Positions 1,727 to 60,190 of a DNA stretch of 64,000 bases are shown one piece after another. The notes beneath the pieces are model-generated. The model saw only the letters and a list, made by a program, of their open reading frames with translations, was not told the origin of the DNA and made no database searches. The position numbers and the translations under genes are program-made. This DNA comes from Rhina ancylostomus. Taxonomy: Eukaryota. Each line of letters opens with the position of its first letter. Position 1 is the stretch's first letter. The stretch spans positions 23,602,137 to 23,666,136 of the forward strand of contig JARFYF010000118.1 of NCBI GenBank assembly GCA_030265395.1, in the 5' to 3' direction.

Positions 1727-1863
1727 AAAAGCAAACTGCTGGAGAAACTCAACAGGTCAGGCAGTGTCTGTAGAGAGAAATAGATAGTTGATGTTTGGGT
1801 TGAGAGTCCAGATGAAGAGTCTCAACCTGAAATGTTGACTGCCCATTTCTCTCCACAGATGCT
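1727..1863. mobile_element. Palindromic Penelope-derived element (two inverted terminal-repeat arms) with decayed hammerhead core
   Basis: Left arm gcagtgtctgtagagagaaatag is inverted relative to right arm catttctctccacagatgc. Centre reads agtc-cagatga-agagtctcaacct-gaaat-gtt-gact. Confidence 0.75.
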
Positions 1864-1989
1864 CTACTCTGCTTCCTATTAGCTCTTTAATCTCCCCCTA
1901 CTCTGCTTCCTGTTAGGTCTCCATTCCATGTTCTCAGTCTCTGTCATATCTGCACTAATCCCACTTTGATCTTTAAATTCCCCATGGTT

Positions 1990-2575
1990 TCCCCTCTATG
2001 GTAGTGGACGAGATTGAACTCTCAGCCACATCTGTTCCATTTCCTGCATTTCTGCTCTCACCCTGATGAGGGACAGGATTTCCCGTGCTCTCAGCTTCCA
2101 CCCCGCCGGCCCCCACATTCAATGGATCATCCTCCATAATTTCAAACGTGTCCCAGTGTAACGCATCACCATGCTGGGCATCACTTCTCCCATCTCACCG
2201 GTACCCACTGCCCCGCCCACACCACCTTCCCATGTAACACTTGCCCTTTTACCTCTTCTTTTCCCACCATCCCGAGACCCAAACACTTCCCCCAAGTAAA
2301 GCAGTGATAAACTTGCAGCTCCTCCAATATAGAGCAATACATTTGATGTGCATGATGTGATTTCCTCTGCACTGGAGAAACCAAACACAGTGCTCTAACT
2401 ATAAGGTCGATCCTGAGCTCGTCAATTTAATTCTGCACCGCACTCTGACCTATCACTCTAACTTCCTACAAGGTCTCAATCTTAGTTCAAGGAGTAATGC
2501 CTAATCTTCTAATGTGGTACATTACAGCCTTCAAGTCTCGACATTGAATTCAATGGTTTCAGATAATCAGCCATT
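1990..2575 (+). mobile_element. Degenerate Penelope-like ORF 3' end (GIY-YIG region)
   Basis: Colinear with 27878-28425 (ttcccatgtaac, ctctgcactggagaaaccaaac, ending acattgaattcaatggtttcagataa). Confidence 0.7.
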
Positions 2576-3400
2576 CCAAACTTGTATCTTCTACTTGCAA
2601 TAATATTTTTCCCCTCCCTCATCGTTGTATGTCAGACTTCATACAAGNNNNNNNNNNNNNNNNNNNNNNNNNNNNNNNNNNNNNNNNNNNNNNNNNNNNN
2701 NNNNNNNNNNNNNNNNNNNNNNNNNNNNNNNNNNNNNNNNNNNNNNNCAGCATTAAATTGGAAGGCCTAGAGCTAAGTAACATACTGAATTAAATCCTTG
2801 GCTTCTCCACTCCTCACAACACAGACTACACCTTCTTACCTACAAACAACTTATTCAATTTCCCCAAACCACCCTCTCCTCCCCCATGCCCCCCAAATAA
2901 TGTAGACATTCTCCACTCAAGTTCTCTTCATCCAGTAGTCTCCCCTTTCCTCACCAACCATTTTGCACTCTGCTTGAAGTGGTGATAATGAATCCAGGTA
3001 AGTTACTCTAAAGTTCCTCCACATCATCAGCCATAGCTCCAACTGAGCCTTGGGAAAAGAAGATTTGGTAGCATATTTGTGTGTAGTAATGTACAACTCC
3101 TGGTAAGCTAACTAAATTTTGACATGGTGGGATAACCAGAAAATGTGTTATTCTGTTGCATCAATTTTATTCCAGCATATCGTTTAGGTTGCACTGGGTC
3201 TTCAGGGCAATTATTGTTTACACTGGATGCTGCTTGGGATAAGTCGGAAGAACAACTTTTTATACAACATCTTTCATTTTCTCAAGAGGACTCAATATCA
3301 TTAATCAATTCTGGAGTGAAATCATTATTGTGTACAAGTCAAACATGCTAGACAGTCTATGCACATCAGCATAAAACAGCAAAGCTTACACATGCAACAT

Positions 3401-3497
3401 GAGCAAAAAAAAACTGCTGGAGGAATTCAGCGGGTCAAGCAGCATCTGTGGGGGGAAAGAATTGTCGACATTTTAGGTCGAAAGCCTGCATCAGTTC
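3401..3497 (-). mobile_element. Penelope terminal-repeat arm with decayed hammerhead core
   Basis: ctgctggaggaattcagcgggtcaagcagcatctgtgg. The minus strand reads ctgatgcaggctttcgacctaaaatgtcgac. Confidence 0.75.
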
Positions 3498-3506
3498 AGC
3501 ACCTGA

Positions 3507-4895
3507 CAGATTGATGGAGGATGTCAAGAAAATTCCACAGAAGTACAGTGCAGAAATGGCATTCCAAGAAAAAATATTGACTAATCTCAATAGAAAGTTG
3601 AACTGAGAGGAAAGAAATGAGGTAGTTCAGCTCCAGTAACAAAAAACATTGATCCCACAAAAGTCAGAGCTACCACTGAACTGTCATGCAAGGCAATGAA
3701 TTCACATAAATTGATACAGTTATTAACAGGACCAGCTAGAAAATTCACTTGCAAGGGAGGAATATGCAATAGTTCTTAGGCAGCACTCTGGAAAGATTCA
3801 ATCAGATAGTAAACTGAGGAACTGAACCATAGCAAAATATATAGTTTGAAGTTTGTTTTTGATGTTGGTTAGTTAATCCTAGATGAGAAACAAAGAGGTT
3901 AGCATTGGCCTTTAAGGTGGCAACCTTCACTCACTCGTGTCTCTCAGCTGTGTCAAATGTTTGCATGCTTAAGCCTCTTTCCAGAGATGGAGCACTATTT
4001 AGGATCAAAGTTGACTGGAATACTGAGGAAGCAATACACTGTCAAAGATGCCATCTGTCAGATGAAATATTAAATTGAGGATCCATCCTCTTAGATAGAT
4101 GTAAGACCTCATGGTGCAACCTGAAGAACATGGAAGTTCTGGCCAAGATTTAAACCTCAGCTGACATTATCAAGCTAATTCATTTGAACTACCTCATTTG
4201 TTTCCTCTCAGTTCCACCTTCTATTTAGATCAGTCAATATTTTTTCTTGGAATGGCACTGCTGCCCTGCACCTCTGTGGAATTTTCTTGACATCCTCCAT
4301 CAATCTGCCATATGCTATTATTTTGTAGGTTCTGTCCACTGGAACAGAAGATTTCAAAATCAATTCACGTGTGATTGGTTAGCTCATGGTTGAATTGCAT
4401 GCTACTACTTACTGTCTAGGTTCAAATGAAAAATGTTTTTTTTGGCAAGATACTAGTGGGCTGGCAGTACCCATGCATTTCCAGTATGTTAGCCTCTCTG
4501 CAAGAAAATTAGCACAGAAAATTCGTAGTTGGCCTATAGTTAAACACAATGTGTCTTTTAGTGAACTAACATGAATAGAAGATCCTATGGCACTTATGAA
4601 GCTGCACAGGGTGTTCTCCGATACAGTTTTATGACTACAGTTCATTTGGAAAGAAGTGTCTGATGCAAAAGTATAAAACTGACATGGGACTGGCCCAAAT
4701 GAAGCCATTCTAGAAATTCTATGAGATGACATTAGCAACTCTGAATGAAGTAGCTGAGGATCCAATTCTAGTATATGATGGATTGATGGAGCATGTCAAG
4801 GAAATTCCACAGAGGTTCACAGCAGGGCGGAAATGCCATTCCAAGAAAAAATATCGACTGATCTGAATAGAAAGTGGAACTGAGAGGGAACAAAA
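3507..4895. repeat. Three local copies of a ~120-bp sequence: 3507-3629 (+), 4185-4307 (-), 4781-4895 (+)
   Basis: All share gattgatggag.atgtcaag.aaattccacag...attccaagaaaaaatat.gact.atct.aatagaa.gt.gaactgagagg. Copies 1 and 2 differ at 11 of 123 positions by manual count. Confidence 0.95.
3925..4200 (+). mobile_element. DeuSINE (SacSINE1/AmnSINE-like) remnant
   Basis: Deu-domain-like tactgaggaagcaatacactgtcaaagatgccatctgtcagatgaaatattaaattgagg. Confidence 0.65.
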
Positions 4896-6610: not shown

Positions 6611-8265
6611 TACTATCCCAAATTCCCTTGTGCAGATCTTTAGAATTATGGTCTATTATGCCTTTCCAGAGTGTCCAGTGAAATACAGTATATTTAATAA
6701 TCTCAGTCAACCTAGATCTCTGATACTGATTTCCATTCCTAAATTTATTGGTTGTTCGTGAAGAAGATAATCATGCCGGTTTCAATGAAACCTTCCAAAT
6801 ATCCATTATTCTGCAGTAATAACAAATCTGTTTTTTTGATCTTTCATTTAAAACTTGTTCACTTTAAACCCGTGCATCCGAGCTGACAAACCCAGCTGAA
6901 AATCCTGACAATTAATAGTCTAAATTGAGTAAAATATCCTATACTGGATAAGATTGTTGTGAGCATTGGGAGATCTGTGTTAGCTCCATGTCTTCAAGGT
7001 AAGCATGCCTTGGACCATCTTGACAAAGGCATATGGATGGGGGTAGGCTTCTGAGCAGATCATCAATGTTTGTTTAAACCAATGTCAAGCTACTCAACTA
7101 AATTGTTGCCTTAACTTGAGGAATGACATTTTTAAGTGAACCTTTCATAAAAAAGGATAGAGGTTAGAACTAATGAAATAATAGGAAGGGCAAGGACTTA
7201 GTGACGCCAACTCTCAACGTGGAGACGGGCTATAATTTCCTTCTCAAGAAATGAGTTGTACAGTCTAAAAGGTTTAGTTAGCAAGACATGCTTCTGTGGG
7301 GAATTTCATTAAATGACAAAAAGGAAAGGTATTAAGTGCACATAATGAAGGCAGGAGTAGGTACACTGCCTTAAGACACTTCTCTTCGTGTGGTGTAATG
7401 GGAGGCATGAACTCTAACTTCAAATCCATTTCTAATTCATTTGAAAGACTGCAGCAAATTATCTGCCTTCAATGCGAAAGCACCAAACCAATTTCCTCAA
7501 AATAGAAGTGACAATACTATAGAATTTATCACCATAACCTTGACTCAGAGGTTGTGTGGCATGCTGAAACCCTACACAAAGAGCAGTGAATAAGGGTCGG
7601 CGATAATAAACACAAGGGGAGACTCAGTAAAAATGATTAAAAAATCTGGTGGCAGAAAAAGATTGTCCAAGAGCAACATGGATCTATCACTTTACAAAGT
7701 GTAGTTTGCGGTCAATAGCAGTCAAAGTGTATGAGGGGTTTTCAATTCATTTCAGTACTGGAATCATTAATTGCACAAATAACCTCTAATGTCTTTTGAC
7801 AATTTAAGGCTTTTGAGTATTTTTCCCCCATGTGGCTATGTATTGCAGCTAGAAGCATATCAAAAGGTTTCTAAATTACAAAATAACCAGTACACTGCAA
7901 TTAAGACCAATATTCGTATCTTAATGATAGCCTTTTGTGCTCTTAATAAATGTTTTATATAAACCATGCCGCAGGGAGATACAGTGTTATGAGTGTGGTC
8001 AAAGGACAACAGTTTAGAAGCTATATATGAAAATTGTTAAAAATTGAAACAAACTACATTCAAAAATATCTGAACTTAATGATTTTTTTCATATATCAAC
8101 AGTAATATTTATCCTAACCTGTTTATGTTCATATAAATAATAATACAAACAAGAGTAAACCATTCATTTAGATTGTGGTTCACCTGTACTTCAGCTATAT
8201 TTAACTCCCTTTATTCCAAATCCTCTGATCCCCTTGACCAACACAACAGCTTGGTTAAGATTTTG

Positions 8266-8806: not shown

Positions 8807-8833
<27 letters not shown>
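8807..8833. repeat. (CA)n microsatellite
   Basis: Directly visible. Confidence 0.95.
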
Positions 8834-11964: not shown

Positions 11965-12495
11965 CCCCCGAACATTGAATTCTCCCACTTTAAGTAATCC
12001 CTAGTTCTCTTCTCCACAACACCCTCCCCCCCACCATGCTTCTTTTCTTCTTCCCTTTCCTTGCCTCTCTCTCGTCTCTACCCCATTTCTTCCTTCTCTC
12101 CTTACCTTTGACTCATCCCCTGGCAGATATGCTCTCCACTCCTCCCCCGCACCTGCCTATCACTATCTTTTACCTGCATCTACCTATTACCACCTTGTGG
12201 CCACCCTGCCTCCCCTCTTTTGTCCACCTACCACTACTCTGCTTTTTCCCTCCTATATATTGGGCTTCCCCTTTTCCTATCTTCAGTCCTGAAGAAGGNN
12301 NNNNNNNNNNNNNNNNNNNNNNNNNNNNNNNNNNNNNNNNNNNNNNNNNNNNNNNNNNNNNNNNNNNNNNNNNNNNNNNNNNNNNNNNNNNNNNNNNNCC
12401 TGAAGAAGGGTCCTGACCAGAAACGTTGACCGCCTGCTTTTCTCCATGGATGCTGCCTGGCCTGCTGAGTTCCTCCAGCATCATAGTGTTTTTCA
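11965..12495 (+). mobile_element. Penelope-like element 3' end (ORF end, pyrimidine-rich UTR, terminal repeat)
   Basis: aacattgaattctcccactttaagtaa encodes NIEFSHFK*. Terminal repeat gatgctgcctggcctgctgagttcctccagca. Confidence 0.8.
12399..12431 (+). ncRNA. Minimal type I hammerhead ribozyme motif
   Basis: CTGAAGA-a-GGGTC ct GACCA-GAAAC-GTT-gac. The 5' stem I strand (agtc) is visible before the gap at ~12285. Confidence 0.6.
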
Positions 12496-12699
12496 CCCCA
12501 TTTTTTCCTCTTTTCTTCTCTCCTATTTTAAATAGTGGGGTTATATTTGCCACCCTCCAAGCTACAGGGACCCTTTGAAAATCTATAGAATTTTGGAAGA
12601 TGACTACCAATGCACCCATTTCCATGGCTACCTGGGATACAGATAATTGGGACTTCTCATCAATCAGTCCCATTAATTTCTCCTGCACTATTTTAAGGT

Positions 12700-13402
12700 T
12701 AAAATTTAATAAAATTTATTCCAGACAAGAGTGACGTAATGCACTTTGGGAAGTCAAATTCTGTTAGGAAACAGGAGTATTGATGCACAGAGGGACCTTG
12801 GGGTGCAAGTCCATAGCTCATTGAAAATGGGAACAAGGTATTGAAGAAGGCATTTGGTTTGGTTACCTTTATGGACTGAGGCACAGAATATAAAAGATAG
12901 GAAGTGATGTTGCAGCTGCACAAAACATTTGTTAGACTCCACTTGGATTATTCTATACAATTCTGATTGGTACAGAAGAGATTTACTCAGATGTTGCTTA
13001 GAATTGAGAGCTGCAGTTATAGGGAGAAAGTGGATCATCTGGGTTTATTCTCAGTGGAGTGTGGGAGGCTGAGGAGTGACCTCATAGAGGTTTATAAAAT
13101 TATGAGGCATAGCTAGGATAAATAGAGCTTTTTTTCCCCTAGGGCAGGGAAGTCTAGTATGACAGGGCAGGTACTAGTACTTAAGGTGAGAAGGGAGAAA
13201 TTTGAGGATCTGAGGGGTAAATTTTTCACATAGAGTGTGGTGGTTATCTGGAATGAGCTGCCAAAGGTGGTGGTAGAGGCAGATACAATTACAACTTTTA
13301 AAGGCACTTGGGCAGGTACTTAAATAGGAAAGGCATACAGGGATATGGGCCAAACACAGGCACATGGCATTAGGTGGACTGAAAGACTATATGATTCCAT
13401 GA
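12700..13402 (+). mobile_element. CR1 LINE 3' fragment
   Basis: gaggagtgacctcatagaggtttataaaattatgaggc and gtggtagaggcagatacaattacaacttttaa. Confidence 0.85.
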
Positions 13403-22906: not shown

Positions 22907-23512
22907 GACATAAGAGATTGCTCCGATGTTGGAATCTGGAGCAACATGCACAAAAAAGTGCTGATGGAACTCAGCAGGTCAGGCAGCATCTATGGAGAGA
23001 AATAAACAGTCGAGGTTTCGTGTCGAGACCCTTCGTCAGGACTGGAAAGGAAGTGGGGAATAGATGGGCACATCATGAGGTGGGATGGCCAGGTCATGAG
23101 GGTGGGGGAAGGGAAAAGAGAAGGGNNNNNNNNNNNNNNNNNNNNNNNNNNNNNNNNNNNNNNNNNNNNNNNNNNNNNNNNNNNNNNNNNNNNNNNNNNN
23201 NNNNNNNNNNNNNNNNNNNNNNNNNNNNNNNNNNNNNNNNNNNNNNNNNNNNNNNNNNNNNNNNNNNNNNNNNNNNNNNNNNNNNNNNNNNNNNNNNNNN
23301 NNNNNNNNNNNNNNNNNNNNNNNNTGAGGGTGGGGGAAGGGAAAAGAGAAGGGCAGGAGGGGGCCACAGGAATGAGGGAAGACAAAGGAGGGAAAAAGGG
23401 CAGGGGTGGAGGTTGGGGGGTGGAGGGTTACCAGAAGGTAGAGAAATTGATGTTGAGGCCGTCAGGTTGGAGACCACCAAGGCGGAATTCGAGGAGTTGT
23501 TCCTCCATGGTC
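22907..23512 (-). mobile_element. Penelope-like element 3' end with terminal repeat
   Basis: Reverse counterpart of 28360-28851. The minus strand encodes ...GGLQPDGLNINFSTFW*. Confidence 0.85.
23007..23044 (-). ncRNA. Minimal type I hammerhead motif, sense to the ZC3H3 pre-mRNA
   Basis: Minus strand cagtc-CTGACGA-a-GGGTC tc GACAC-GAAAC-CTC-gactg. Two substitutions (stem II and stem III) affect pairing relative to the intact copy. Confidence 0.65.
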
Positions 23513-25680: not shown

Positions 25681-26807
25681 GATTTATCATTAGCCCTCTA
25701 CAACTAAGTATATACCACTTTTAGAATGCAGGGACAATTTTATCCACTCTACCTTCAGAGGGACTTCAGTGGGTTGTACATAGCCCAAAAAAAAGATATT
25801 GACTGAAATTTTAAAAAGCAATCAAAATAGAGGAATAAATGTTGAGAGGGGTTGGAATCTAGATTTATAGTATAGAAAGTCAGCCATCTTATATTAACTT
25901 CAACCATGACCACGGTTCTTGCAAACACTGGAATTGATTATTTGACTTACTCCTGCTCTTACTTAAAGGGAAACAGTTTGGGCAATCAACAGTGAACAAG
26001 TACACAAATGGAAGTTGTTAAACTAGATTAGAAAGAAGTGTACATGCATTTAGTACAGACAGTTAATCGTATTTATTCATATGCTATTTACTTTTAAGAT
26101 TCTATTAATTTTGGAACCAGACAAGCAATTCTTAGATGGAAATCTGTGACATTTTGCAAGTTTGAATCCAAATAAGTAAATTAAGGTTTAGTGTCTGGAT
26201 GTATTGGATTTCATTAGTACGTAAATTGTAAAAAAAATTATACAGGAAAGAACAAGAACCTCAACTTAAAACATAGATGCAGGAGTTGGCCATTCAGTCA
26301 CTTGTGCCTTCTCTGTCATTCGATAAGATCAAGGCTGATCTTTTATCTCAGTGCCACTTTGCTGCATTAACCCCATTTACCTTAATATCAAGAAATCTAT
26401 TGATCACTTTCTTGAATATACTCAGCAACTCTTTCTTGTCGATTAAAATGGATGAGATTTAGTGATCTAGGAAATCTTGCACCTAGGATATGCAACATAC
26501 ACAGAAACACTTACTGAAATTAATGTGGCCATTTGTGGATGCCCATTGGTCAATAACAATTCATATTTACAAGCAATCTTCATTATAGAAAAGCATTCCA
26601 AGATGCTTGAGAGGCATGAGGAAAGCGGGTGCTCACCATTTCAGAATGTTGGTGATCTCGACCTTGAGAAGCTATATGGAAAAAGTGGGTGATAATCATT
26701 CAGTATACATTTCCAAGCCACTCACAAAGAAAATAAATGGGGATTGCAGAAAGCAATAAAGAATCTGCTGGAGAAACTCAGTGGGTCGCGCAGCATCTGT
26801 GGGAGGA

Positions 26808-27569
26808 ATTGGATTAAGGTCTAATTTGTTATTTTTCTTGTAGTTTAACTTTCTTTATGCTTGCTTATATTTTTGTATAATCACCTGTTTGTAAATGTTC
26901 AGTAGATTTTCAGTCATTTGTAGTATAGCTGGTTCTGTACTTCTGTAGTTTCTTTGTCTGTAGTCTGAGATATCATGGCAGCGTAACTCAAGACAGTCCT
27001 TGTTAACTCACAGGCTGCTCTGTCAGGGAGGACTCCCTTATCTATCCAGCTTGAACTAGTTTTCAGTATAAAGGAGGACCTTGTGTTCTTTATTCGGTTA
27101 CTATTAGCTAGTCCTTTGTTCAGTTACTGTTAGTATGAGTAAGTTCTTATTAGAGTTAGTGTTGTTTGCTCGCAGCTCTTTAACTGCTATTTTTTTGTTA
27201 TGAATGTTATGTTTGTTCTTCATTAAGAGACAAAACTTGGCATGGGTTTTAACTTCTGAACTTTTTTAATATAACACAAAACTACAATGACTACATCTTA
27301 GCTATACAGCTGCTGCTCCAGACTGCAAAACAGAGAGGCTGCTAACTCATCTATTTGTTTACACAGCTTGCTTACTTACTCACAGTCACTTCCTGGTCCC
27401 CCATGTGACCCCTTGCATTGCCTACTGGGAACTGTAGTTCTTTATTATAATTACATAACAACACATAATAACACAATGAACATCTAATAAATGGCCATGA
27501 TCACAAGATTTATGCATCATTCTTGACTTCTGAAGAACCTTCTAGACAATATCATCTCCAGATCCAACA
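26808..27569 (+). mobile_element. Solo LTR (outer)
   Basis: 5-bp TSD gagga at 26803-26807 and 27570-27574. Termini (a)ttgga...tccaACA, TATA-like gtataaagg near 27066, AATAAA at 27486-27491. Confidence 0.7.
27205..27475 (-). mobile_element. Solo LTR (inner, Gypsy/BEL-like, 271 bp)
   Basis: TGT...ACA termini and 5-bp TSD atgaa at 27200-27204 and 27476-27480. Minus-strand ATTAAA at 27265-27270. Confidence 0.8.
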
Positions 27570-27877
27570 GAGGAGCTGATGCAGGATTCTGACCCAAAAC
27601 ATTAACAATTCATTTCCTCCCACAGATGCTGCTTGACCCACTGAGTTCCTTCAACAGACTGTTTGTTGCTCCAGATTCCAGCATCTGCAGGTTCTTATGT
27701 CTCCAGTGCAGAAAGCAATTATTGGAGTAATGTGGGAGTAGACTCCAGCTTAGTTCCTCTCCCCAAATTCTCAAGGATTGATGAAATAATTTCTTGAGGC
27801 TATCAGAAAATCTGAGTTCCTTGCAAGGAGATAAAGGCAAGATTTAAAGGTAGGATTGAAAGATATATTGTTGAAAA

Positions 27878-28851
27878 CGTCTCTGCATCCAACACATCAT
27901 TCTCTGCAAATTGTGCAACCTCCTACGGGATCCCACCTCCAGGTACATCTTCAACCCCCCTCTGCTTTCTGCAGGGATCACTCTCTCCACCACTCCCTTG
28001 TCCACTTGTCCCTCCCCACTAATGTCCCTCCCAGCACTTACCCCTGCAACCATGCAAAGTGCTACACCTGCCCCTACACCTCCTCCTTCACCAACATTCA
28101 GGGCCCTAGACAGTCTTTCCAAGTGAGGCAGTGATTCACCTGTGAATCTAAGGATGTCACTTATTGCATTTGGTGCTCCTGCTGTGGCCTCCTCTACATT
28201 GGTGAGACCCAATGCCGACTGGATAACAGCTTTGTCGACCACCTTTGCTCCATCCGCTTCAAAAGCAAGGATCTCCTGGTGGCCAAACACTTCAATTCCA
28301 CATCCTATTCCCACACTGAGATGTCCATCCACGGCCTCCTCTACTGCCACAGTGAACACCTGATACTCTGCCTTGGTAGTCTAAAACCTGACGGGTACAA
28401 CATTGAGTTCTCTAGCTTCCAGTAACCTGTCTACTCTCCCTGCACCCCCCCCACCCCTGCTTTGTCTTCCCTCATTCCTGTGGCTGCCTCACCCCTTCTC
28501 TTTCCCCTCCCCTGCGCTCATGACTTGNNNNNNNNNNNNNNNNNNNNNNNNNNNNNNNNNNNNNNNNNNNNNNNNNNNNNNNNNNNNNNNNNNNNNNNNN
28601 NNNNNNNNNNNNNNNNNNNNNNNNNNNNNNNNNNNNNNNNNNNNNNNNNNNNNNNNNNNNNNNNNNNNNNNNNNNNNNNNNNNNNNNNNNNNNNNNNNNN
28701 NNNNNCTTCTGCTTTACTAGTCCTGATGAAGGGTCTCGACCCGAAACGTCGACTGTTTATTTCTCTCCATTGATGCTGACGGACCTGCTGAGTTCCTCCA
28801 GCAGTTTGTGTGTGTTGCTCTAGATTCAAGCATCTGCAGAATCTCATGTCT
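27878..28851 (+). mobile_element. 5'-truncated Penelope-like retroelement with GIY-YIG endonuclease pseudo-ORF
   Basis: TYPCNHAKCYTC...FQVRQ*FTCESKDVTYCIWCSCCGLLYIGETQCRL...VAKHFNS...GSLKPDGYNIEFSSFQ* (stop at 28423-28425). 10-bp TSD ttgttgaaaa at 27868-27877 and 28852-28861. Confidence 0.9.
28719..28754 (+). ncRNA. Intact-looking minimal type I hammerhead ribozyme in the Penelope terminal repeat
   Basis: Stem I agtc/gact, core CTGATGA, stem II GGGTC-tc-GACCC, then GAAAC-GTC with palindromic ACGT stem III. Predicted cleavage after 28750. Confidence 0.8.
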
Positions 28852-31599: not shown

Positions 31600-31725
31600 G
31601 TGCAAAAATCAAACTGCATCAGGACTCATGCAAGGTCTCAATCCTTTGTCATGACATATGCTACTTGACCCACTGAGCTCCTCCAGTAGTTTGCTTTATG
31701 CTCCAGATTACAGCATCTGCATTCT
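31600..31725 (+). mobile_element. Penelope terminal-repeat remnant
   Basis: tgacccactgagctcctccagtagtttgc...tccagattacagcatctgca. Confidence 0.65.
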
Positions 31726-32584
31726 TTTATGCCTTTTTGCCATTTTGAACTGTTAAAATTTATCTCTGCAAGAGTTGCATAATACACAATGGTATATAAA
31801 AATGAGAAGGATACAATGAATAGAAAAGTGTTAAGCAGGTGGTGAAATGAAAGCAAATCACTTTTAAGTTAAAGTTAACAGGAAACACTATTTAGAAGCA
31901 GCAAAAGTAACACCCAATTAAGCAACCTTTTAAAGATTCAACAGATACTGCAGAGCTGAAGCTCCAATCACAATAAGGAATTGGGAGTTTATAATCCATG
32001 TGTTTACACAAGAATCAACTTCACTCAGATAACTTTTATTGCCATTTCTGTCTGATGACATTGCTGGGATTATTTTTAACGGACAATAAAAAGAGAGAGA
32101 TCACCACACTGTTTAATATAGACAAACTGAAATAGGAAGAATTAAGGGCTGAAACAGATTCACACAAGGAGTATATTTTTGCTAAAAAAACATCTATTTA
32201 ATTGGACAAAACCTATCAACTGAAATGTAACCACAGAAAATGCACACAGTGTACAAAAATGCCCATTTGGTACAACTAAACAGCTCTACAGTTTGGAGGA
32301 AAACTCCAAGGATCAAATTGAGTTAAGATGATTAGACGCACAAGTCCATTTGATGGCTGTATGCAATCGATTAGGAACCAAGACCTTCAGAATAGGTTTG
32401 ATTAAACCAAAATAATGCAGCAATAGTGGTGTCACAATAGGTTATAATTGCCCTGTAACAAGGCAAATAAAAACCATCTGAAGATCTTATTGTCACTGAC
32501 ACTTTCCACTCAAAGAACACACTTATAGGCTAGGCAGAGAGTTGCATTTTGCCATCTGTACTATTTAAGTCTCCAACTCACAGA

Positions 32585-33548
32585 ACATTCATAGAATCAT
32601 AACATTACAGCACAATACAGGCCCTTCGGCCCACAATGTTGTGCCACCTTTAAACCTCGCCTAAGACTATCTGACCCCTTCCNNNNNNNNNNNNNNNNNN
32701 NNNNNNNNNNNNNNNNNNNNNNNNNNNNNNNNNNNNNNNNNNNNNNNNNNNNNNNNNNNNNNNNNNNNNNNNNNNNNNNNNNNNNNNNNNNNNNNNNNNN
32801 NNNNNNNNNNNNNNNNNNNNNNNNNNNNNNNNNNNNNNNNNNNNNNNNNNNNNNNNNNNNNNNNNNNNNNNNNNNNNNNNNNNNNNNNNNNNNNNNNNNN
32901 NNNNNNNNNNNNNNNNNNNNNNNNNNNNNNNNNNNNNNNNNNNNNNNNNNNNNNNNNNNNNNNNNNNNNNNNNNNNNNNNNNNNNNNNNNNNNNNNNNNN
33001 NNNNNNNNNNNNNNNNNNNNNNNNNNNNNNNNNNNNNNNNNNNNNNNNNNNNNNNNNNNNNNNNNNNNNNNNNNNNNNNNNNNNNNNNNNNNNNNNNNNN
33101 NNNNNNNNNNNNNNNNNNNNNNNNNNNNNNNNNNNNNNNNNNNNNNNNNNNNNNNNNNNNNNNNNNNNNNNNNNNNNNNNNNNNNNNNNNNNNNNNNNNN
33201 NNNNNNNNNNNNNNNNNNNNNNNNNNNNNNNNNNNNNNNNNNNNNNNNNNNNNNNNNNNNNNNNNNNNNNNNNNNNNNNNNNNNNNNNNNNNNNNNNNNN
33301 NNNNNNNNNNNNNNNNNNNNNNNNNNNNNNNNNNNNNNNNNNNNNNNNNNNNNNNNNNNNNNNNACCTCACACTTCTCCAGATTGAACTCCATCTGCCAC
33401 CTCTCAGCCCAGCTCTGCATCCTATCAATGTCCCTCTGCAACCTTCGACAATCCTCCACACTCTCCACAACACCAACCTTTGTGTCATCTGCAAACTTGC
33501 CAACCCACCCTTCTACCCCCTCATCCAAATCATTAATAAATATCACAG
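32585..33548 (-). mobile_element. Young CR1 LINE (RT region to 3' tail, mostly in a gap)
   Basis: IFINDLDEGVEGWVGKFADDTKVG...LQRDIDRMQSWAERWQMEFNLEKCE. Confidence 0.9.
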
Positions 33549-33606
33549 CACTGAACCAGCATCTGATGAAGCCACAAATACAGTTAGTTTTGAAACACAA
33601 GATTAC

Positions 33607-33763
33607 CTTAAGCAGGAGCTGTTGACCTTTTTAGTCTTCCAGGAAATGCCAGATGAGGCTGTTGGTAAATTATTCCAGCTTGCATTTTTCTTCACTATTT
33701 TATACCTTGTATTGATTAGTCTGTTACTTGAAGGGCTTTTCACTGAGAATGAGGAACTTAAAC
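33607..33763 (-). CDS. ZC3H3: Internal coding exon (157 nt, phase 1 to phase 2) of a ZC3H3 orthologue (CCCH zinc-finger protein, nuclear RNA processing/PAXT)
   Basis: Acceptor ttttatttatgtttacacag| and donor AG|gtaatc. Open frame (G)LSSSFSVKSPSSNRLINTRYKIVKKNASWNNLPTASSGISWKTKKVNSSCL(R) resembles the recalled human ZC3H3 segment ASSLHAVRTAPTSKVIKTRYRIVKKTPAS...SWRARRLSLSR, with similar exon size and phases. Identified from memory, not by search. Confidence 0.8.
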
Positions 33764-44882: not shown

Positions 44883-45083
44883 GAACAAGAAACAATCTGC
44901 TGGATGAACTCAGTGGGTTGAGCAACATCTGTAGGGGGAAAGGAAGTGTCAACATTTTGGGTCAAAACCCTGCATCAGGACTGTTAACAATTCCCTTTCC
45001 CCAATAGATGCTACTCGACCTTGAGCTCCTGCAGCAGGTTGTTTGTTGCTTGAGATTCTAGCATCTGCAGTCTCATATCTCTG
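44883..45083. mobile_element. Complete palindromic Penelope-derived element (~200 bp)
   Basis: Inverted arms and a 12-bp TSD taaagatttctg at 44871-44882 and 45084-45095. Decayed minus-strand hammerhead agtcctgatgcagggttttgacccaaaatgttgac. Confidence 0.85.
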
Positions 45084-46850: not shown

Positions 46851-48280
46851 ATTAAAAATAAAACAAGAGGCAAGGAATCATCGCCTTAGCTATAAGCCTC
46901 ACTGAAGGAAGTTCCAAAGTTTAGCATTAAAACCTAATTTTAAAACTTTAAAAATAAGTAAAATGGCAACACTGATTCAGGATCTTCAGGAGGGTATAAT
47001 GGGTGGCTGATTCAACATTGCCCATTGTGCACCATCATTCAAAGCAAAATTATTCTAACATGCACAAGGAAGGTAGTTTTTACCCTACTGACCACACATT
47101 TCACTCTCTTCTGTGCCATGCCCAATGGTATGAAATAGAGCCAGATTTGTGCCATAAATTATTGCCTGTTATGAACTTCACTGAGGACATTCCAATTTAT
47201 TTAATACTGAGCAAACATCTCATCAGTCTAGGCTGAGTTTGATTCTAAAGTCATAAAGATGACAAGCTGGTGCACCTCCAGTTTTTTTAAAAATCCATTC
47301 TCAGCTGATATAACATCATCTTATAGAATGTAATGTTTTTAATTACCCAATTGTGGGATACTGATTAGGCTTAGTTTAACTGAAAAAGGCACAATTTATT
47401 GTGCAAGAGAACATTAATGTTGAAAAGTGATTCGGGTGACGTTTAAGTATTAACAACTGTTGGCTTAATATCCTTAACTTTGTGATCAGTAGCAAAGCAA
47501 CAGTGCTAGCCATGATCTTGCAGAAAGCTGCCCATACAGATTTACTAATCTCTGAGGCACAGATTCCAACACTCCTGACGACTTAGTTTGTTGTCAGGTG
47601 TCTGTTTCAAGGGATTACTGATATCCAGCAGCAGTGTTGTTGTCTATCTGGCTAAACAAATTATGTCAAAGAATTCTCAAAGATAATAAACTATTAAATA
47701 CATTCTTTTACTTTCTAAACAATTCACAATATGCAGAATCAACATACACAAGATTTAGAAAATGAAACATTAACAGTTAAAACAAAATTAATTTCAAAAT
47801 TTAAAATATTTAATCTTAATAGATGGCAATCCACACAAATTAATTATTTCCTGGGCCAGAGCAATAGTTAAGCAGTAATAATAGCTCAATGCATAATTAA
47901 AAGCTCACTCATATGGTAGCAAAGCAGAGCATTTTCAGGGTATTTTACAGAGGGAATAGTTCATAAATAACTGAAGCTTTTGTCAGTTCAGTGCATTCTG
48001 AAGTTTACACTGAAGACTAAAACAATGTGTCTAACAGAGATCTGGAAATCACTGACAGCAAAGGAAATCAATGACAAATTCTAGATTTCCATGTTTAACT
48101 AAGCATGTAGACATTCCAAAAGTAAATAATTTTCCTCCTTTATAACAGTGGATGCTGACTGCTCCAACCTTATTTTTCAGAGCACATTCCAGACTAATGA
48201 ATTTGAAGACTGTACATTGAAGGCAACATTAGGTCAATGACCTAAAATATTTAATCTGTTATCCTGACCAGCTAAGTATT

Positions 48281-48539
48281 TACAGTGGAGACACAAAAGA
48301 TGGCAAATGCTAGAATCTTGAGCAAAACACAGAAGACAGCGGTTGAGGCAGCATCTATGGAGGGAAATGAACAGTCAATGTTTCGGGTCAAGACTCTTCG
48401 TCTAGACTCCTTTATAACAATGGATGCTGACTGCCCCACCCTTATTTCATCGAGTGCATAGGATAACCCAGATAGGGTCTCAACCTAAAACACAGATGCT
48501 GCCTGATCTGCTTGAGTTCTTCCAGCATTTTGTGTGAGT
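48281..48539. mobile_element. Palindromic Penelope-derived element with captured local sequence in its loop
   Basis: Inverted arms and an 8-bp TSD taagtatt at 48273-48280 and 48540-48547. Loop 48407-48447 copies 48135-48175. Confidence 0.85.
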
Positions 48540-49334
48540 TAAGTATTGGCAATTTTTGCTCTTTTTGATATTTAATTTAAATTCCCCTTTCCCCTTCACT
48601 TTAGCTTTCTCAGTTAAACTAGAGCCAAGCAGTATCCCACCATTGGATAATTAGAAAAAACATTTCATTCTACAAGATGATACCGTATCAGTTGAGAATA
48701 AATATATAAAAAACTGGCGATGCACCAGCTTATCATCTTTATGACTTAAAATCAAACACATCATGAAAAACTATTTTTCATTCTATTGAAATTCAAGTCT
48801 CTACATCAATAGGCCAGAGAGCAGCTCTTTGGCCACTGGGAAGAAGCAATTTAGGAGGACCCTTGTAATGCTGGAAAGGAAGGTAACCCCTCTATAATTA
48901 TCACTATAGTAACTAATATAATATCCTATATCACAGTTTCTAATATTGTAATAGAAGCCATTTGGCCCTTCAAATCTATGCCAGATCTCAGAGAAATTTC
49001 TTTCCCCAACTTATTTCCTAATAATCTATTTTATTTCACNNNNNNNNNNNNNNNNNNNNNNNNNNNNNNNNNNNNNNNNNNNNNNNNNNNNNNNNNNNNN
49101 NNNNNNNNNNNNNNNNNNNNNNNNNNNNNNNNNNNNNNNNNNNNNNNNNNNNNNNNNNNNNNNNNNNNNNNNNNNNNNNNNNNNNNNNNNNNNNNNNNNN
49201 NNNNNNNNNNNNNNNNNNNNNNNNNNNNNNNNNNNNNNNNNNNNNNNNNNNNNNNNNNNNNNNNNNNNNNNNNNNNNNNNNNNNNNNNNNNNNNNNNNNN
49301 NNNNNNNNNNNNNNNNNNNNNNNNNNNNNNNNNN

Positions 49335-54545: not shown

Positions 54546-55227
54546 TGTTTAAGGTTCTATGTCTGTGTTTCAGGTCAAAACCCTGCATTCGATCCTGACA
54601 ATTCCTTTACTCCCACAGAGTCTTTTTTGGAAGGCCATAATCCTCAACTAGTAAGGTATCAAAGATATGCTCATACTTTAAAGGTATACTTACAGTTATA
54701 TACACTACATTAGTGTGACTTCTGGGAATCTGCAGAAAGTGGGTAGTCACCTTTGGCTTCCATAACTGGAGTGCAATCAAAACGACAGTGCAAAGCTCCT
54801 CTTAGGAGTGGACCCAACTTTTTCATCCGTGCATGCTTGCAGGAGGCCCAAAATTCCCAACAGTAAACCCAGCAAAGTCTTCTGTGGAACTGCCTACATC
54901 CCCCAAGGAATTCCAGGCTGTTGTGTTTGGTAGTTCTGCAGCATTGTGCAAGAAGAGGCACACAGCAGTGCTCCATTCACTCTGTCATCTGAAAGGGCAA
55001 GGTGACATTTTTCTGGCAACTTGATTCATAAACACCTTGCTGAACTGAGCCTCTCTGCTTACAATGTTCAAAGGCATTTGTGCAAGCCAAGAGGAGTGAA
55101 CAGAGCCTGAGCAAATTAAGGACAGTGTCTGTACTTGGCATAATGATGCATCTCAGCATCATTCAGTAATGGTATTTTCTTGTTCATTGGCAAACAAAAT
55201 TGCCAGCACTTATTCCGGTTGCTTTTT

Positions 55228-56379
55228 GAACATAGAGTCATAAAGTACTTCAGCACAGAAACAGGCCCTTGGGTCCAGGCAGAAGATCAGGTCGTCATGG
55301 ACTAGGTGGGCCAATCTACCTGCACCCGAACCATATCCCTCCAAACTCCTCCCATATGTACCTTTCCAAACCTCTCTTAAATGTTACAATTGAACCTGCA
55401 TCTACGACTTCTGCTGGCAGGTCATTCCACACTGACACCACCCTCTGAGTGAAGTAGTTCCCCCTCAGATTCCCCTTAAATATTTCACTTTTCACCCTAA
55501 ACCTATGACCTCTAGTTCTAGTCTCATCCAGCCTGAGGGGGAACAAGCCTGCATGCATTCACCCTATCTATACCCCTCATAATTTTGTATACTTCCATAG
55601 GATCTCCCCTCATTCTCCTGCGCTCCAGGGAATAAAGTTCTAAACTATTCAGCCTATGCCTGTAACTCAGGTCCCCAAGTCCCAGCAACTTCTGTATAAA
55701 TTTTCTCTGCACTCAATCCTCTAAGTTTTGACCAATGTCTTATACAACTTCAAAATAACATTCCAATGCCTGTACTCAATGCCTTGATTTATGAAGACCA
55801 AAATGCCAAAAGCTCTCTTGAGCCCTATCTACCTGTGAGGCCACTTTCAAAGAACTATGGACCTGTATTCCCAGGTCCCTTTTTCTACTGCACACCTCAG
55901 TACCCTACTATTCACTGTGCAAGTCCTACCCTGGTTTAGTTTTCCTCTCTGTCCACTATGCCCCCAATCTTGGTATCATCCGCAAATCTGCTGATCTAGA
56001 TTACCACATTATCATTTAAATCATTAATATAGATGATAAACAACAGCAGACCCAGCACCAATCCCTGCAGCACACCACTAGTTACAGACCTCCAGTCAGA
56101 GAGATAACCATCTACTACCACTCTCTGGCTTCCCCCACGAAGCAAACATTGAATCTAATTGACTACTCCATCCTGAATGCCAAGCGACTTAACCTTCTGG
56201 ACCAGCTTCCCATGCGGGACTTTGTCAAAGGCCTTGCTGAAGTCCACACAGATAACGTCCGCCAGCTTGTCTTTATCAACCTCCTCGAAAAACTCTATAA
56301 GATTGGTTAAACATGACCTGCCACACACAAAGCTATACTGACTACCCCTGACCAGGCCCTGTCTATCCAAGTACTTATA
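55228..56379 (-). mobile_element. CR1 LINE, RT domain to 3' tail
   Basis: GRSCLTNLIEFFEEV, VDFSKAFDKVPHGKLVQKV, LYSLERRRMRGD, TRGHRFRVK and NYFTQRVVSVWNDLP. Confidence 0.92.
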
Positions 56380-56724
56380 CAGTGGCATGCAAACGCTTGG
56401 GCACCCGTGGTCAAAATTTCTGTTACTGTGACTAGCTAAGCGAGTAAAAGATGACCTGATTTCCAAAAGGCATAAAGTTACAGATGACACATTTCTTTAA
56501 TATTTTAAACAAAATTATCTTTTTATTTCTATCTTTAACAGCTTCAAAACATCAAAAACAAAAGGGCCCAAAGCAAAAGTTTGGGCACCCTGCATGGTCA
56601 GTACTTAGTAAAACCCCCTTTGGCAAGTATCACAGCTTGTAAACACTTTCTGTAGCCAGCTAAGAGTCTTTCATTTCTTGTTTGGGGGATTTTCACCCAT
56701 TCTTCCTTGCAAAAGGCTTCTAGT
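56380..56724 (-). mobile_element. Tc1-family DNA transposon 3' end (IR/DR-type terminal repeat plus transposase C-terminus) inserted into the CR1
   Basis: TA|CAGTGGCATGCAAA terminus and direct repeats gcaaa....tgggcaccc at 56389-56406 and 56573-56590. Peptide LEAFCKEEWVKIPQTRNERLLAGYRKCLQAVILAKGGFTKY* (stop at 56598-56600). Confidence 0.9.
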
Positions 56725-56999
56725 NNNNNNNNNNNNNNNNNNNNNNNNNNNNNNNNNNNNNNNNNNNNNNNNNNNNNNNNNNNNNNNNNNNNNNNNNNNN
56801 NNNNNNNNNNNNNNNNNNNNNNNNCATAGAACCATAGAACAATACAGCACAATACAGGCCCTTCGGCCCACCATGTTGTGCCGTCCATCAAACCACACCT
56901 CCCACCATCTAACCCTTTTTTTTGCCGGGCGGGGTAATAATACAACTGTAATAGTTGTATGATAGTAAATAACCTAGAATAAAATTAAGAGATTTTAAA

Positions 57000-57430: not shown

Positions 57431-57544
57431 CTGGCTGCATCAACTTTTAGAAACAGAAGAAAAATTAGCAAGAGTTCGGGGGGAGGCAGAAGGATGGAAG
57501 AATTTATAAGAGGGAGGGAAACAGAAAGTGATCAGATGGCTTCC

Positions 57545-57772
57545 TCCACTTGAATCTACCACTCACCTATACACTAGGGGTAATTTACAGTGCCAATTAA
57601 CCTACCAACCTCACACCTTTGGAATGTATGAGGAAACTGGAGCATCTGGAGAAAACCCATGTGGTTACAGGGAGAACGCGCAAGCTCTGACCAGGCAACA
57701 CCTGAAGTCAGGATTGAACCCCGGTCACTGGTGTTGTGAGGCAGCGTCTCTATTATCAGCACCTCTGTACCA
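57545..57772 (-). mobile_element. V-SINE (HE1-like)
   Basis: aggaaactggagcatctggagaaaacccatgtggttacagggagaacgcgcaagctc...ggattgaaccccggtc (reverse B box). Confidence 0.8.
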
Positions 57773-58381
57773 CCTTACAGAATGTAAACTTGTTGCATAT
57801 GTCTTTCTTTAAATGTCAGCCATTGCCTCTCTACTGTCATACCCTTTAATACTATCAGTACCTTTAATACAATCTATCACAACCAACCCATCCCTCATAC
57901 CTTTACAATCTCCTTAATTTAGATTCAAAACCTGGTTTCAATTACAACTATAATCTCTTATAAACTTGGAATAAAATTCTACCATATTATTGTTAGTCTT
58001 ATTTAGAGGCCCCTTAACAAGATAATTAATTAACCCTTTCTAATTATACAGTAACAGATCTAAAATAGCCTGTTCCTTAGTCAGATCTTCAACATACCAG
58101 TTTAGAAATCCATCTGAAATATACTTCAGGAATTCATTCATTACACCGTTAGTAATGATCTGATCAGTCGATATGAAGATCGAAGTCCATCATAATTACA
58201 TGTAACAGTCATTTTCTTACTTATACCATGCTCTACATCACAACTAATATTTGGAAACCTATGAATGTTTTGCCTGTACTTTCTGCATGTAGAAGACCTT
58301 GAACATTTAGTTTTCAGTTCTGAACACCCTGCGGTCACATTTCTGCAATCACAATTAAATTATTCCTATTTACCATACTGT

Positions 58382-59105
58382 ACATAGAATTGTACAGCAC
58401 AGAAATAGGCCTTTCGGCCCACCATGTCCATGTCAACCTTTTTGCCAATCTACACCAATCCCATTTGCCTGCATCAAGGCTGTAAGCTTTTACGTCTTCC
58501 TACTTAAGTGTCTGTCCAAATGTCTCTTAAACATAGTATCTGATTCTACCGCCTCCTCCGGCAGGCCGTTCCAGAAGAATAACCACTCTCTATTTAAAAA
58601 CTTACCCCTCAAATCTCCTTTAAAACTCCTTCCTCTCACCTTAAACCTATCCACTCTAGTTTTTGATACTCCTACCATGTCCACATCCATCTCCTTCAAA
58701 ACTCTCCGACGTAGGTCATCAGGTACTAATACTAATTTCTTTAAACTCATTCACTTTAGACCTCTGGTTCTCCAATATTTTTGGGAGGTTTCCTTTGCCT
58801 TCATCCATGAAGACAAACTACTTGTTTAACTTCCCTGTCATTTCCTATTGCCCAAAATAAGATGAGAAGAATTTCTTAACTCAGAAGGCCATGAACCTTT
58901 AAAATGTTCAACCCTGGAGAGCTGTAAGAGTTCAGTCATTATGTATATTGAAAACAAATAAAAATAGATTATTAGATATCAACAAAACCAAGGGATTTGA
59001 GTTTAGTGCTGGAGAATGGCATGATGGTAAAAGATCATGCATCTTCATATTGACATGTAGAGCAGCCACTGGAGTCCGAATGGCCGACTCCTGCCTCAAT
59101 TTCTT
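58382..59105. mobile_element. CR1 3' ends at 58382-58675 (-) and 58860-59105 (+)
   Basis: KTRVDRFKVRGRSFKGDLRGKF peptide and gaatggccgactcctgcctcaatttctta. Confidence 0.8.
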
Positions 59106-59977
59106 AAATACTTAGAAGCGCCAGTAAAGTCCCAATCTAGTCACTCATTCTGAAACATACAAGATAACAAGTTATCCTTGTTAAGTGCACAAATATTCCT
59201 GATCCAAGAATGCACCACCCCACCACCACTCTCATATTGGGCCCAAATTCCAGCCTCGGTGCCAATATCGGGTCAGCAGCTTACCGCCCTTTGAAGAGGT
59301 TGTTTGGGGTGTATCCTTTCAAATGAGAGATGTGCAACTCCAGATTTCTTGCTACTGAACTCTTTAAGCTGTGTTAAAGTTTTTAGACAATCAAGACTTA
59401 AAAGACATGAACCCTGCTGAAGGATCAGTTGGAAGATACCGAACTGTCCACAGGCACTCCTATATTTTGTGGCTCTGCAGAATCAGTTGACCTGCGATCT
59501 GGTTGCTATAACTTCCCACAGACAAGACGTGATCATCAACGAGATCTCAGATGGCAGGTGCTATGGCCCCAAGCGCACAGATGAGACATTGAAAAATAAA
59601 ATCGCTCAAAATAATTTAAAATGAAATAATTAATTTAAAACAATGAAAGATAAAGCTAACGACTTACCTGCATTAAACTTTTAAAATCAAGAGCAGCAAA
59701 CAATATGGTATCCTACTATCTGTACTAGATATGGCTGATGTAAAGCCGAGCGACCAAATGCAAATTGCATCTGGACTGTGAGCCAAGTGGTTCTCTATGG
59801 AACTGCTGGCCAGAGGCAAGTACATTATGGCCTACGATTACAAGGCTATTGCAAATGATGTGTTATGTACAATTTAGGACTAGTGTTTAAAATAAAAACT
59901 CATTATAACAAGGATGCATGTTCTTAAAATGGGTCAAGCTGATACCCTTTCCTGAATATTAGCCTAATGAATTAAAA

Positions 59978-60190
59978 GTAGAATATACTGGAAACACTCA
60001 ACAGATCAAGCAACAGCTTTGGAAAGAGAAACAGAATTAATATTTCAGATCAATGATTCTTCATTAAAGTTCTGACAACAGGACTTCAACCCTAAATATT
60101 AAATGTTTCTCTTTCCACAGATGCTGCCTGATCTGCTGAGTGTTTCCAGCATTTGATGTTTTTATTTCAGATTTCCAGCATCTGCAGATT
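59978..60190. mobile_element. Older palindromic Penelope-derived element
   Basis: ctggaaacactcaacagatcaagc is inverted relative to gcctgatctgctgagtgtttccag. The hammerhead core is decayed. Confidence 0.75.

What the first reader, a model, noticed from the sequence alone, without database searches (positions are those of the whole stretch)
1727..60190. Dense family of hammerhead-bearing palindromic mini-retroelements derived from Penelope terminal repeats
Seen: about ten copies of one ~130-bp repeat. In 27878-28851, 22907-23512 and 11965-12495 it ends a GIY-YIG PLE. At 1727, 26758, 44883, 48281 and 59978 it forms ORF-less elements of two inverted arms joined at or near the hammerhead core. Three of these have clean TSDs of 13, 12 and 8 bp. 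Known: PLE pseudo-LTRs carry minimal hammerheads and often have an inverted truncated copy at the 5' end. Inferred: these are either a non-autonomous, retrozyme-like hairpin family mobilised by the PLE enzyme, or a stereotyped product of abortive PLE insertion. They sit inside a pre-mRNA, where they would fold into long dsRNA stems.
Basis: partly seen in the sequence, partly recalled or inferred. Interest (0 to 1): 0.72.

Follow-up and report, generated by a model that had tools for sequence, protein, structure and literature searches.

The report
Penelope retrotransposon front-end stubs
These short mirror-image inserts are real and very common in this genome, but they are likely one-off leftovers of a known jumping gene (a Penelope-like element) rather than a self-copying family, and their ends likely mark where that element's RNA begins.

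Summary
The repeat is real: 17 arms of a ~133-bp terminal repeat (pLTR) of a Neptune/Nematis-type Penelope-like element (PLE). The 13-, 12- and 8-bp TSDs are exact.

Corrections:
- The window is not unusually dense (287 arms and 48 head-to-head pairs in 1.27 Mb sampled).
- No palindrome arm keeps an intact hammerhead core.
- The 26758 arms are split by nested LTR-like inserts.
- A host pre-mRNA is unproven.

A replicating palindrome family is not supported. Junctions mostly differ, and the recurrent ones sit on microhomologies. One junction shared by 27 copies has the tail on either arm and no arm-specific variant after correction. All seven sequence clusters make palindromes and also end PLE bodies. 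One window junction holds local DNA.

Inverted pLTR, one-sided tail and TSD are published PLE architecture. This scan noted the same thing in other genomes.

Added here: arms pile up at the hammerhead's 5' edge, not at its cut site. That edge has an Inr-like motif, a TATA-like motif at about -30, and an excess G just before it (16 of 24, p=2e-5). This suggests two cDNAs that ran off a capped RNA 5' end. Interest is modest.

The parts
1724..1863 (.). Head-to-head unit: minus arm (repeat positions 16-98) joined to plus arm (1-59); outer half of right arm missing; at most a 7-bp TSD
3375..3497 (-). Solo arm starting at the hammerhead edge (positions 2-130), no PLE body upstream
11965..12499 (+). 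5'-truncated PLE end of the youngest cluster: last ~10 codons, 3' UTR, hammerhead with matching core, short (tail-less) end; part withheld as N
22907..23512 (-). 5'-truncated PLE end: last ~30 codons, 3' UTR, pLTR with tail
26758..27706 (.). Head-to-head unit (short minus arm 38-100, long plus arm 2-132) with 13-bp TSD, later split at its junction
26813..27569 (.). Secondary insert: ~490-bp solo-LTR-like multicopy repeat with an apparent 4-bp TSD, holding a nested ~270-bp repeat at 27205-27475
27881..28851 (+). 5'-truncated Neptune/Nematis-type PLE: broken linker zinc finger and GIY-YIG end (stop-free stretch 28135-28422), 3' UTR, intact minimal hammerhead at 28719-28754, tail
31612..31732 (.).
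44883..45083 (.). Cleanest mini-palindrome: short minus arm 1-104, long plus arm ~29-130, 12-bp TSD; core decayed
48281..48539 (.). Head-to-head unit: long minus arm 2-132, 66-bp spacer including a 41-bp copy of 48135-48175, short plus arm 12-93 with a deletion, 8-bp TSD
59978..60195 (.). Head-to-head unit of an older cluster, both arms reaching the hammerhead edge (8-91; 2-126); right flank runs into N, so TSD not determinable
891..990 (+). Old, decayed solo arm
54560..54590 (-). Hammerhead-region fragment of the same repeat

Best explanation
The palindromes are head-to-head pairs of a Penelope-like element's terminal repeat, each likely made anew at one insertion when two short cDNA copies, likely primed from the two DNA ends of a staggered cut, were joined. 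SHOWN: the arms are pLTR ends of several clusters of a Neptune/Nematis-type element; both arms usually come from one cluster; one arm usually ends at ~+100 and the other at ~+133; TSDs flank the pairs; junctions vary, often with short microhomology or filler; one arm nearly always reaches the hammerhead's 5' edge (+1). INFERRED from published Anolis biochemistry: +100 and +133 are the two reverse-transcription start sites, and the enzyme cuts and extends both strands. INFERRED here (about 0.5): +1 is the capped transcription start. Priming in the 5' pLTR copy then gives a 100-133-nt run-off cDNA, like retroviral strong-stop DNA. One such cDNA gives a solo arm; two give a palindrome, joined by end-joining. 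The palindromes lack the upstream TATA-like motif and decay neutrally, so they are likely dead on arrival.
For: Sample of 141 stretches (1,266,575 non-N bases): 287 arms; neighbours within 150 bp are 48 head-to-head, 5 tail-to-tail and 6 direct; TSD of 7 bp or more in 17 of 48 vs 1 of 48 shifted controls. 32 of 48 pairs are long+short; the lower start is on the short arm in 15 and on the long arm in 13; 39 of 48 have an arm starting at position 10 or less, and 12 of 48 have both (counted by eye). Arm starts: 152 of 287 at positions 1-7, 11 of 287 at 30-36, the cut site. All 7 clusters contain both body-bearing and inverted arms; same cluster in 33 of 45 scorable pairs vs 18% expected; within-element identity 0.737 vs 0.736. 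Genome-wide junction pattern for one cluster: 223 matches; the first 100 listed span 25 lengths, with peaks of 29 and 18 on GAC and CT(GA) microhomologies. 27 copies with one junction carry the tail on one arm in 17, on the other in 5, on both in 2, unscorable in 3; minimum p=0.009 over 64 columns, not significant after correction. Local 41-bp capture at 48281. TATA-like words start at -31 to -28 in 20 of 33 hits among 40 body-bearing copies. G precedes +1 in 16 of 24 copies that lost the native C, against 25% expected (p=2e-5). Solo arms from about +1 directly inside 12-14-bp TSDs (L295, L297, L301, L311). The tail runs into shared downstream sequence in 4 of 100 listed young copies (by eye) and in L093/L233; in L233 the 5' pLTR of a deleted element starts at about +5 behind an inverted arm. 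RT then GIY-YIG order in longer copies. Literature.
Against: The edge pile-up is weak in the youngest cluster: 4 of 30 stop there, about twice the upstream rate; about 20 of 100 by eye. The G count is small, the cluster-4 copies were picked by eye, 2 of the 24 are coincidental, and several Gs also match the TSD or the partner arm. The same upstream features read equally well as branch point, pyrimidine tract and AG acceptor; in D. virilis the intron ends at the 5' end of helix I and the promoter is TATA-less, starting ~120 nt further upstream. 16 of 48 pairs do have look-alike junctions. Pfam support for RT and GIY-YIG is below cut-off. No full-length element was examined and no transcript end was seen. 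31 of 48 pairs show no TSD of 7 bp or more (old, 8-20% diverged copies).
Confidence: 0.72

Rival explanations
1. Solo-pLTR formation: a full-length unit (inverted pLTR, pLTR, ORF, pLTR) inserted first, and recombination between the two direct pLTRs later removed the body, leaving the palindrome and the TSD.
For: Also predicts an arm starting at the RNA 5' end and an extra G. The precursor layout exists (L233; Pen2a). Bodiless arms are rarer in the youngest cluster.
Against: Only 4 of 100 listed young tails continue into a body. 12 of 48 pairs have both arms ending at the edge, so at least one arm per pair must be a short cDNA. Only 100-133 bp of homology is available (inference).
Confidence: 0.12
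2. Self-priming (snap-back) at hammerhead-region palindromes, on the cDNA or on an antisense RNA as proposed for rotifer Penelopes, makes the second arm as a copy of the first.
For: Junction microhomologies are self-complementary stretches of the hammerhead region. Proposed in PMC3846280 Discussion.
Against: In 15 of 32 long+short pairs the arm with the lower start is the short one, so the long arm cannot be a copy of it. Both outer ends match the two 3' ends of ordinary direct copies. The antisense version is not excluded by this.
Confidence: 0.08
3. A replicating non-autonomous family: either master palindromes, or single arms transcribed and re-copied by the PLE enzyme like a SINE.
For: High copy number; recurrent junctions (29 and 18 of 100 listed); cluster 4 is mostly bodiless (4 of 29 edge-reaching arms have a body).
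Against: Tail on either arm and no significant arm-specific variant at the shared junction. Every cluster has body-bearing copies. Local DNA sits in one junction. Bodiless arms lack the TATA-like motif. Direct neighbours are rare (6 of 59) and cores are decayed.
Confidence: 0.08

Closest known systems
EN+ PLE insertion with inverted pLTR, one-sided tail and TSD (Adineta vaga Pen2a, PMC3846280; general scheme in PMC8557442 Fig. 2 legend)
   Same: Head-to-head inverted pLTR, ~30-35-nt tail usually on one side, TSD of 7-14 bp, palindromic or microhomology junctions, solo pLTRs, TATA/Inr-like motifs noted as putative in the rotifer pLTR.
   Different: Here both arms are reduced to the 100-133-nt hammerhead-plus-tail segment, the form is very abundant (about 38 pairs per Mb sampled), and the inner ends pile up at one position.
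Neptune/Nematis clades of PLEs (PMC8557442)
   Same: [quoted passage not shown]
   Different: Clade not placed by RT phylogeny here; all copies seen are broken.
Anolis Poseidon element PAc in vitro (PMC11167929)
   Same: Two internal RT start sites bracket the tail; both strands are cut and extended; hammerhead cleavage is not needed; product length is set by the RNA's 5' end.
   Different: Different clade; the parts I read do not describe palindromic products or map the start site.
Minimal hammerheads of metazoan PLEs (PMC4209133) and non-LTR retrozymes (bioRxiv 10.64898/2026.07.22.740005)
   Same: Same minimal type-I motif in the pLTR; PLE-derived and non-coding.
   Different: Retrozymes are tandem direct repeats with intact motifs in at least two consecutive units. 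These are inverted pairs with decayed cores, and junctions avoid the cut site.
L1 twin priming and retroviral minus-strand strong-stop DNA (both recalled, no call)
   Same: Two target-primed cDNAs joined by microhomology; a short cDNA that runs off the RNA 5' end; cap-templated extra G.
   Different: Here both cDNAs would copy the same short segment, giving a palindrome rather than an inversion. An analogy only.

Membership tests
EN+ Penelope-like element insertion | PLE-type RT followed by C-terminal GIY-YIG in the parent element | tested here: met
   RT-type motifs upstream of GIY-YIG in longer copies L112, L120, L122, L130 (motif recognition is recalled); Pfam RVT_1 E=0.06 and GIY-YIG E=0.05-0.07, all below cut-off
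EN+ Penelope-like element insertion | pLTR with minimal hammerhead | tested here: met
   Core pattern matches at 28723, 23039 and 12400; Rfam has no matching hammerhead model
EN+ Penelope-like element insertion | Optional 30-40-bp tail, usually on one end | tested here: met
   Bimodal 3' ends near 91-106 and 125-132; 32 of 48 pairs long+short
EN+ Penelope-like element insertion | Inverted 5'-truncated copy head-to-head, unit flanked by TSD | tested here: met
   48 head-to-head vs 5 tail-to-tail; TSD 17 of 48 vs 1 of 48 control
EN+ Penelope-like element insertion | Partial tandem: 5' pLTR followed by element body | tested here: inconclusive
   Shared continuation after the tail in 4 of 100 listed copies and in L093/L233; no full-length copy examined
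Neptune/Nematis clade | CX2-5CxxC linker finger plus CCHH motif | tested here: met
   Seen in the frame starting at 27781 and in L112-L130; definition
Neptune/Nematis clade | RT phylogenetic placement | not tested
   No reference PLE RT set was at hand
Non-LTR retrozyme | Tandem direct repeats, at least two consecutive units | tested here: not met
   6 of 59 close neighbours are direct; definition
Non-LTR retrozyme | Intact hammerhead in each unit | tested here: not met
   No palindrome-type arm in the window passes the core test
Non-LTR retrozyme | Circular RNA / rolling-circle intermediates | not testable with these tools
   No RNA holder listed
Replicating non-autonomous palindrome family | Shared junction with fixed arm polarity and arm-specific variants | tested here: not met
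   32 of 48 junctions without look-alike; shared junction has the tail on either arm and no significant arm-specific column
Replicating non-autonomous palindrome family | Sequence cluster found only without the autonomous body | tested here: not met
   All 7 clusters include body-bearing arms; clustering is coarse, so a small arm-only subclade could be missed

The most novel reading that the evidence does not exclude
The stubs are fossils of a strong-stop-like step in PLE replication. The pLTR is a TATA/Inr promoter whose capped RNA starts at the first base of the hammerhead. The enzyme primes both target ends at +100 and +133 on this sense RNA and runs off the cap, leaving an extra G. This would explain PLE inverted ends without an antisense template or ribozyme cleavage, and supply tens of thousands of natural footprints of the intermediate.
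Probability: 0.4. Interest if true: 0.55.

Novelty: new member of a known kind. Interest (0 to 1): 0.32.

Why it matters
As a repeat family it is ordinary: the architecture is in print, the window is typical of its genome, and the copies decay neutrally. Its value is mechanistic. How PLEs form their inverted ends is stated as unresolved (PMC8557442 passages), and PMC3846280 proposed antisense self-priming. The junction statistics here favour two separately primed cDNAs that stop at a fixed RNA 5' end rather than at the ribozyme cut site. That gives a sharp test: one CAGE/5'-RACE experiment or one in-vitro assay. Extrapolating the sample gives about 80,000 hairpins in the genome, a possible source of intronic dsRNA, but no expression or editing evidence was obtained.

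Tried and rejected
Rfam scan: no hammerhead model matched; the four sub-threshold hits (three miRNA, one snoRNA) are below gathering score, and two of them lie on these hairpins. The loose pattern CTGANGA..GAAA is not enriched in the window by itself (12 vs 6.75 expected, 4 of 100 shuffles as high). RNA evidence: no RNA holder listed, so small RNA, circRNA and A-to-I editing were not tested. Laying contigs of X1 and X2 showed the repeat's very high abundance and flanks shared with a related organism, but no empty site among the rows shown. Ribozyme cleavage as the junction-setter: rejected (11 of 287 arms start at 30-36). The 759-bp spacer at 26758 as a captured or transduced body of a non-autonomous PLE: rejected; in the 29 other copies examined the flanks printed show no pLTR arm joined to the LTR-like ends, and the ends look like a solo LTR. 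Selection or gene conversion keeping the stems paired: not supported (Wilcoxon p=0.99). Spliced RNA as template: not favoured, as no conserved upstream exon is seen and TSDs abut +1 in several solo arms, but not excluded. Inverted arms ahead of long GIY-YIG copies: within 1.5 kb only a few of 20 loci showed one, which is uninformative because many extend further. Host gene: not identified. PDB search of an RT fragment: 0 matches. The 11 loci with the shared downstream continuation were not examined, so the front of a full-length element was not read. Paper searches for a description of these mini-palindromes in cartilaginous fish, or of TSS run-off in PLEs: searches returned 0 papers; searches listed none on point by title or abstract; one search returned only unrelated papers. 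Repbase, Dfam, most subscription papers and all supplements were not seen and may describe them.
Full report
SETTING. The window is G000:C118:23602137-23666136 in a 2.2-Gb assembly. My reading of it as a cartilaginous fish is recalled from the look of its repeats; no call names the organism. Repeat positions below count from +1, the first base of hammerhead helix I, in a 133-position profile built from 38 near-full copies. Profile ends are good to a few bases.

1. OBSERVATION. Self-BLAST and a profile search find 17 arms in about 12 insertions. The TSDs of 13, 12 and 8 bp are exact. The three hairpins folded are far below shuffled energies, as expected for inverted repeats. Corrections: the 26758 unit is split by a solo-LTR-like repeat and a nested repeat; the 48281 junction contains a 41-bp copy of DNA 100-140 bp upstream of the insertion; no palindrome arm keeps an intact hammerhead core; only 27881-28851 carries GIY-YIG sequence. 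The host-gene claim is unproven.

2. PARENT ELEMENT. The fragment at 27881 encodes a broken CX4CxxC linker and GIY-YIG end. Longer relatives extend upstream into RT motifs, with weak Pfam hits only. By the definition in PMC8557442 (passages) this is the Neptune/Nematis architecture. Clade placement by tree was not done.

3. GENOME SAMPLE. I scanned the window plus 140 ten-kb stretches from eight large contigs, chosen by coordinate (20 of them flank the window): 1,266,575 non-N bases. There were 287 arms and none in the reversed control. Close neighbours were 48 head-to-head, 5 tail-to-tail and 6 direct; TSDs of 7 bp or more were found in 17 of 48 vs 1 of 48 controls. This extrapolates to roughly 5x10^5 arms and 8x10^4 pairs, so the window is typical. 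At least one of the 48 (L233) is the front of a longer deleted element.

4. FAMILY OR INSERTION PRODUCT. 32 of 48 pairs have no look-alike junction within 2 nt; 16 do. A genome-wide pattern for one cluster gave 223 junctions. The 100 listed (the first by contig order) fall into 25 lengths, with peaks of 29 and 18 on GAC and CT(GA) microhomologies. In all 27 exact copies of a pattern for the commoner junction the tail is on one arm in 17, on the other in 5, on both in 2 and unscorable in 3. The best of 64 columns has p=0.009, which does not survive correction. Seven sequence clusters (8-20% from their majority; clusters 1-3 are fuzzy parts of one old group) each contain body-bearing ends and palindromes. 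The two arms share a cluster in 33 of 45 scorable pairs (18% expected) but are no more alike than other members (0.737 vs 0.736). So palindromes arose repeatedly from several PLE lineages and decay neutrally.

5. WHERE THE ARMS END. Outer ends are bimodal, near +91-106 and +125-132, in paired, solo and body-bearing arms alike; 32 of 48 pairs have one of each. In Anolis PAc the tail lies between two RT start sites, both strands are cut and extended, and hammerhead cleavage is dispensable (PMC11167929, parts 1-2 of 4 read). Inner ends pile up at the hammerhead's 5' edge. Of 162 arms reaching position 10 or less (8 more dropped for N or locus edge), 48 continue into pyrimidine-rich body and 114 do not. 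None of the 114 matched a body profile, though roughly a dozen keep 10-25 upstream bases by eye. The cut site is not a hot-spot (11 of 287). The pile-up is strong in cluster 4 (about 60 of 100 listed, by eye) and weak in the youngest cluster (4 of 30).

6. WHY +1. Body-bearing copies show an Inr-like YYAGTYC at +1 and TATA-like words starting at -31 to -28 (20 of 33 hits in 40 copies; the Inr and TATA labels and spacing are recalled). Among copies that keep A at +1 but lost the native C before it, that base is G in 16 of 24 (25% expected, p=2e-5). This resembles the cap-templated G of full-length retrotransposon copies (recalled). The caveats are real: small numbers, cluster-4 copies picked by eye (15 of 100 listed, 13 kept), two coincidental entries, and several Gs that also match the TSD or partner arm. 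Solo arms from about +1 sit directly inside TSDs, and the tail continues into shared sequence in a few copies. Against this, the same features fit a 3' splice site. In D. virilis the intron ends at helix I (PMC4209133 passages) and the promoter is internal and TATA-less (PMC2377424 passages), while a putative TATA/Inr is noted in the rotifer pLTR (PMC3846280 passages).

7. MECHANISM. Shown: parentage, two outer ends, TSDs, variable junctions, edge pile-up. Inferred: a staggered cut; two cDNAs primed at +100 and +133; run-off at a capped +1; joining by end-joining with microhomology or filler. Simple cDNA snap-back cannot give the 15 of 32 pairs in which the short arm has the lower start. Recombination between direct pLTRs could make some units but not both arms of the 12 of 48 pairs that end at the edge on both sides (by eye). 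Confidence is about 0.8 that these are de novo PLE products and about 0.5 for the run-off step.

8. KNOWN SYSTEMS. Inverted pLTR, one-sided tail, 8-10-bp TSD, palindromic junctions and solo pLTRs are described in PMC3846280 (passages and Discussion), PMC8557442 (passages) and PMC8969392 (passages). Retrozymes require tandem units with intact motifs (bioRxiv 10.64898/2026.07.22.740005, part 1 of 5 and passages), which is not met. My searches found no paper on these minis or on run-off at the start site, but Repbase, Dfam and supplements were not seen. Earlier notes of this scan on other genomes reach the same general verdict, and one speaks of front-end copies made from both sides of a cut; I had noted the twin run-off idea before that look-up. 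They are not independent evidence.

VERDICT. Real and abundant, a new member of a known kind; interest 0.32. The one thing worth pursuing is the prediction that the element's capped RNA starts at the first base of the hammerhead.

Noticed in passing
window 26813-27569 and 27205-27475; L166, L172-L200: A ~490-bp solo-LTR-like repeat (TG...CA ends, 4-5-bp TSDs, 74-89% identity to other copies) with a younger ~270-bp repeat (90-94% identity) nested in it; superfamily not determined.
   Followed up: partly
L038:5172-5360 and 7697-7924, minus strand: Two BRO1-domain exons (Pfam E 7e-12 and 2e-7) about 75 kb right of the window, transcribed towards it; whether the gene spans the window is unknown.
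   Followed up: partly
window 48135-48175 and 48407-48447: 41-bp local sequence (93% identical) copied into the junction of the 48281 element, a likely templated insertion during end-joining.
   Followed up: partly
repeat positions ~30-55, e.g. window 28748-28773: Downstream of the hammerhead the repeat also reads like a 3' splice site (pyrimidine tract, YAG) followed by ATG; the many intronic copies could offer cryptic acceptors.
   Followed up: no
L325 (G000:C1:120933193-120935627): A short tandem array of ~35-nt hammerhead-region units, whose unit boundaries fall close to the predicted cut site; the one retrozyme-like arrangement seen.
   Followed up: no
L233:2047-3015: Internally deleted element with the canonical layout: inverted short arm, pLTR starting near +5, front-end sequence, microsatellite, 3' pLTR.
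   Followed up: partly
cluster 4 and cluster 6 arms (e.g. window 44982, 1805): Whole clusters carry fixed core changes (CUGAUGC, CAGAUGA) in place of CUGAUGA, so some lineages spread with a non-canonical hammerhead core.
   Followed up: no
window 3498-3629, 4185-4317, 4769-4894; 47234-47388 / 48605-48760; 15298-15400: Other local inverted or direct repeats from the self-BLAST, unrelated to the pLTR.
   Followed up: no
window 41-472, 12500-12715, 33366-33630, 56155-56496: Fragments that look like LINE (CR1/L2-type) coding ends, by recall; only 41-469 was scanned with Pfam (weak hits).
   Followed up: no
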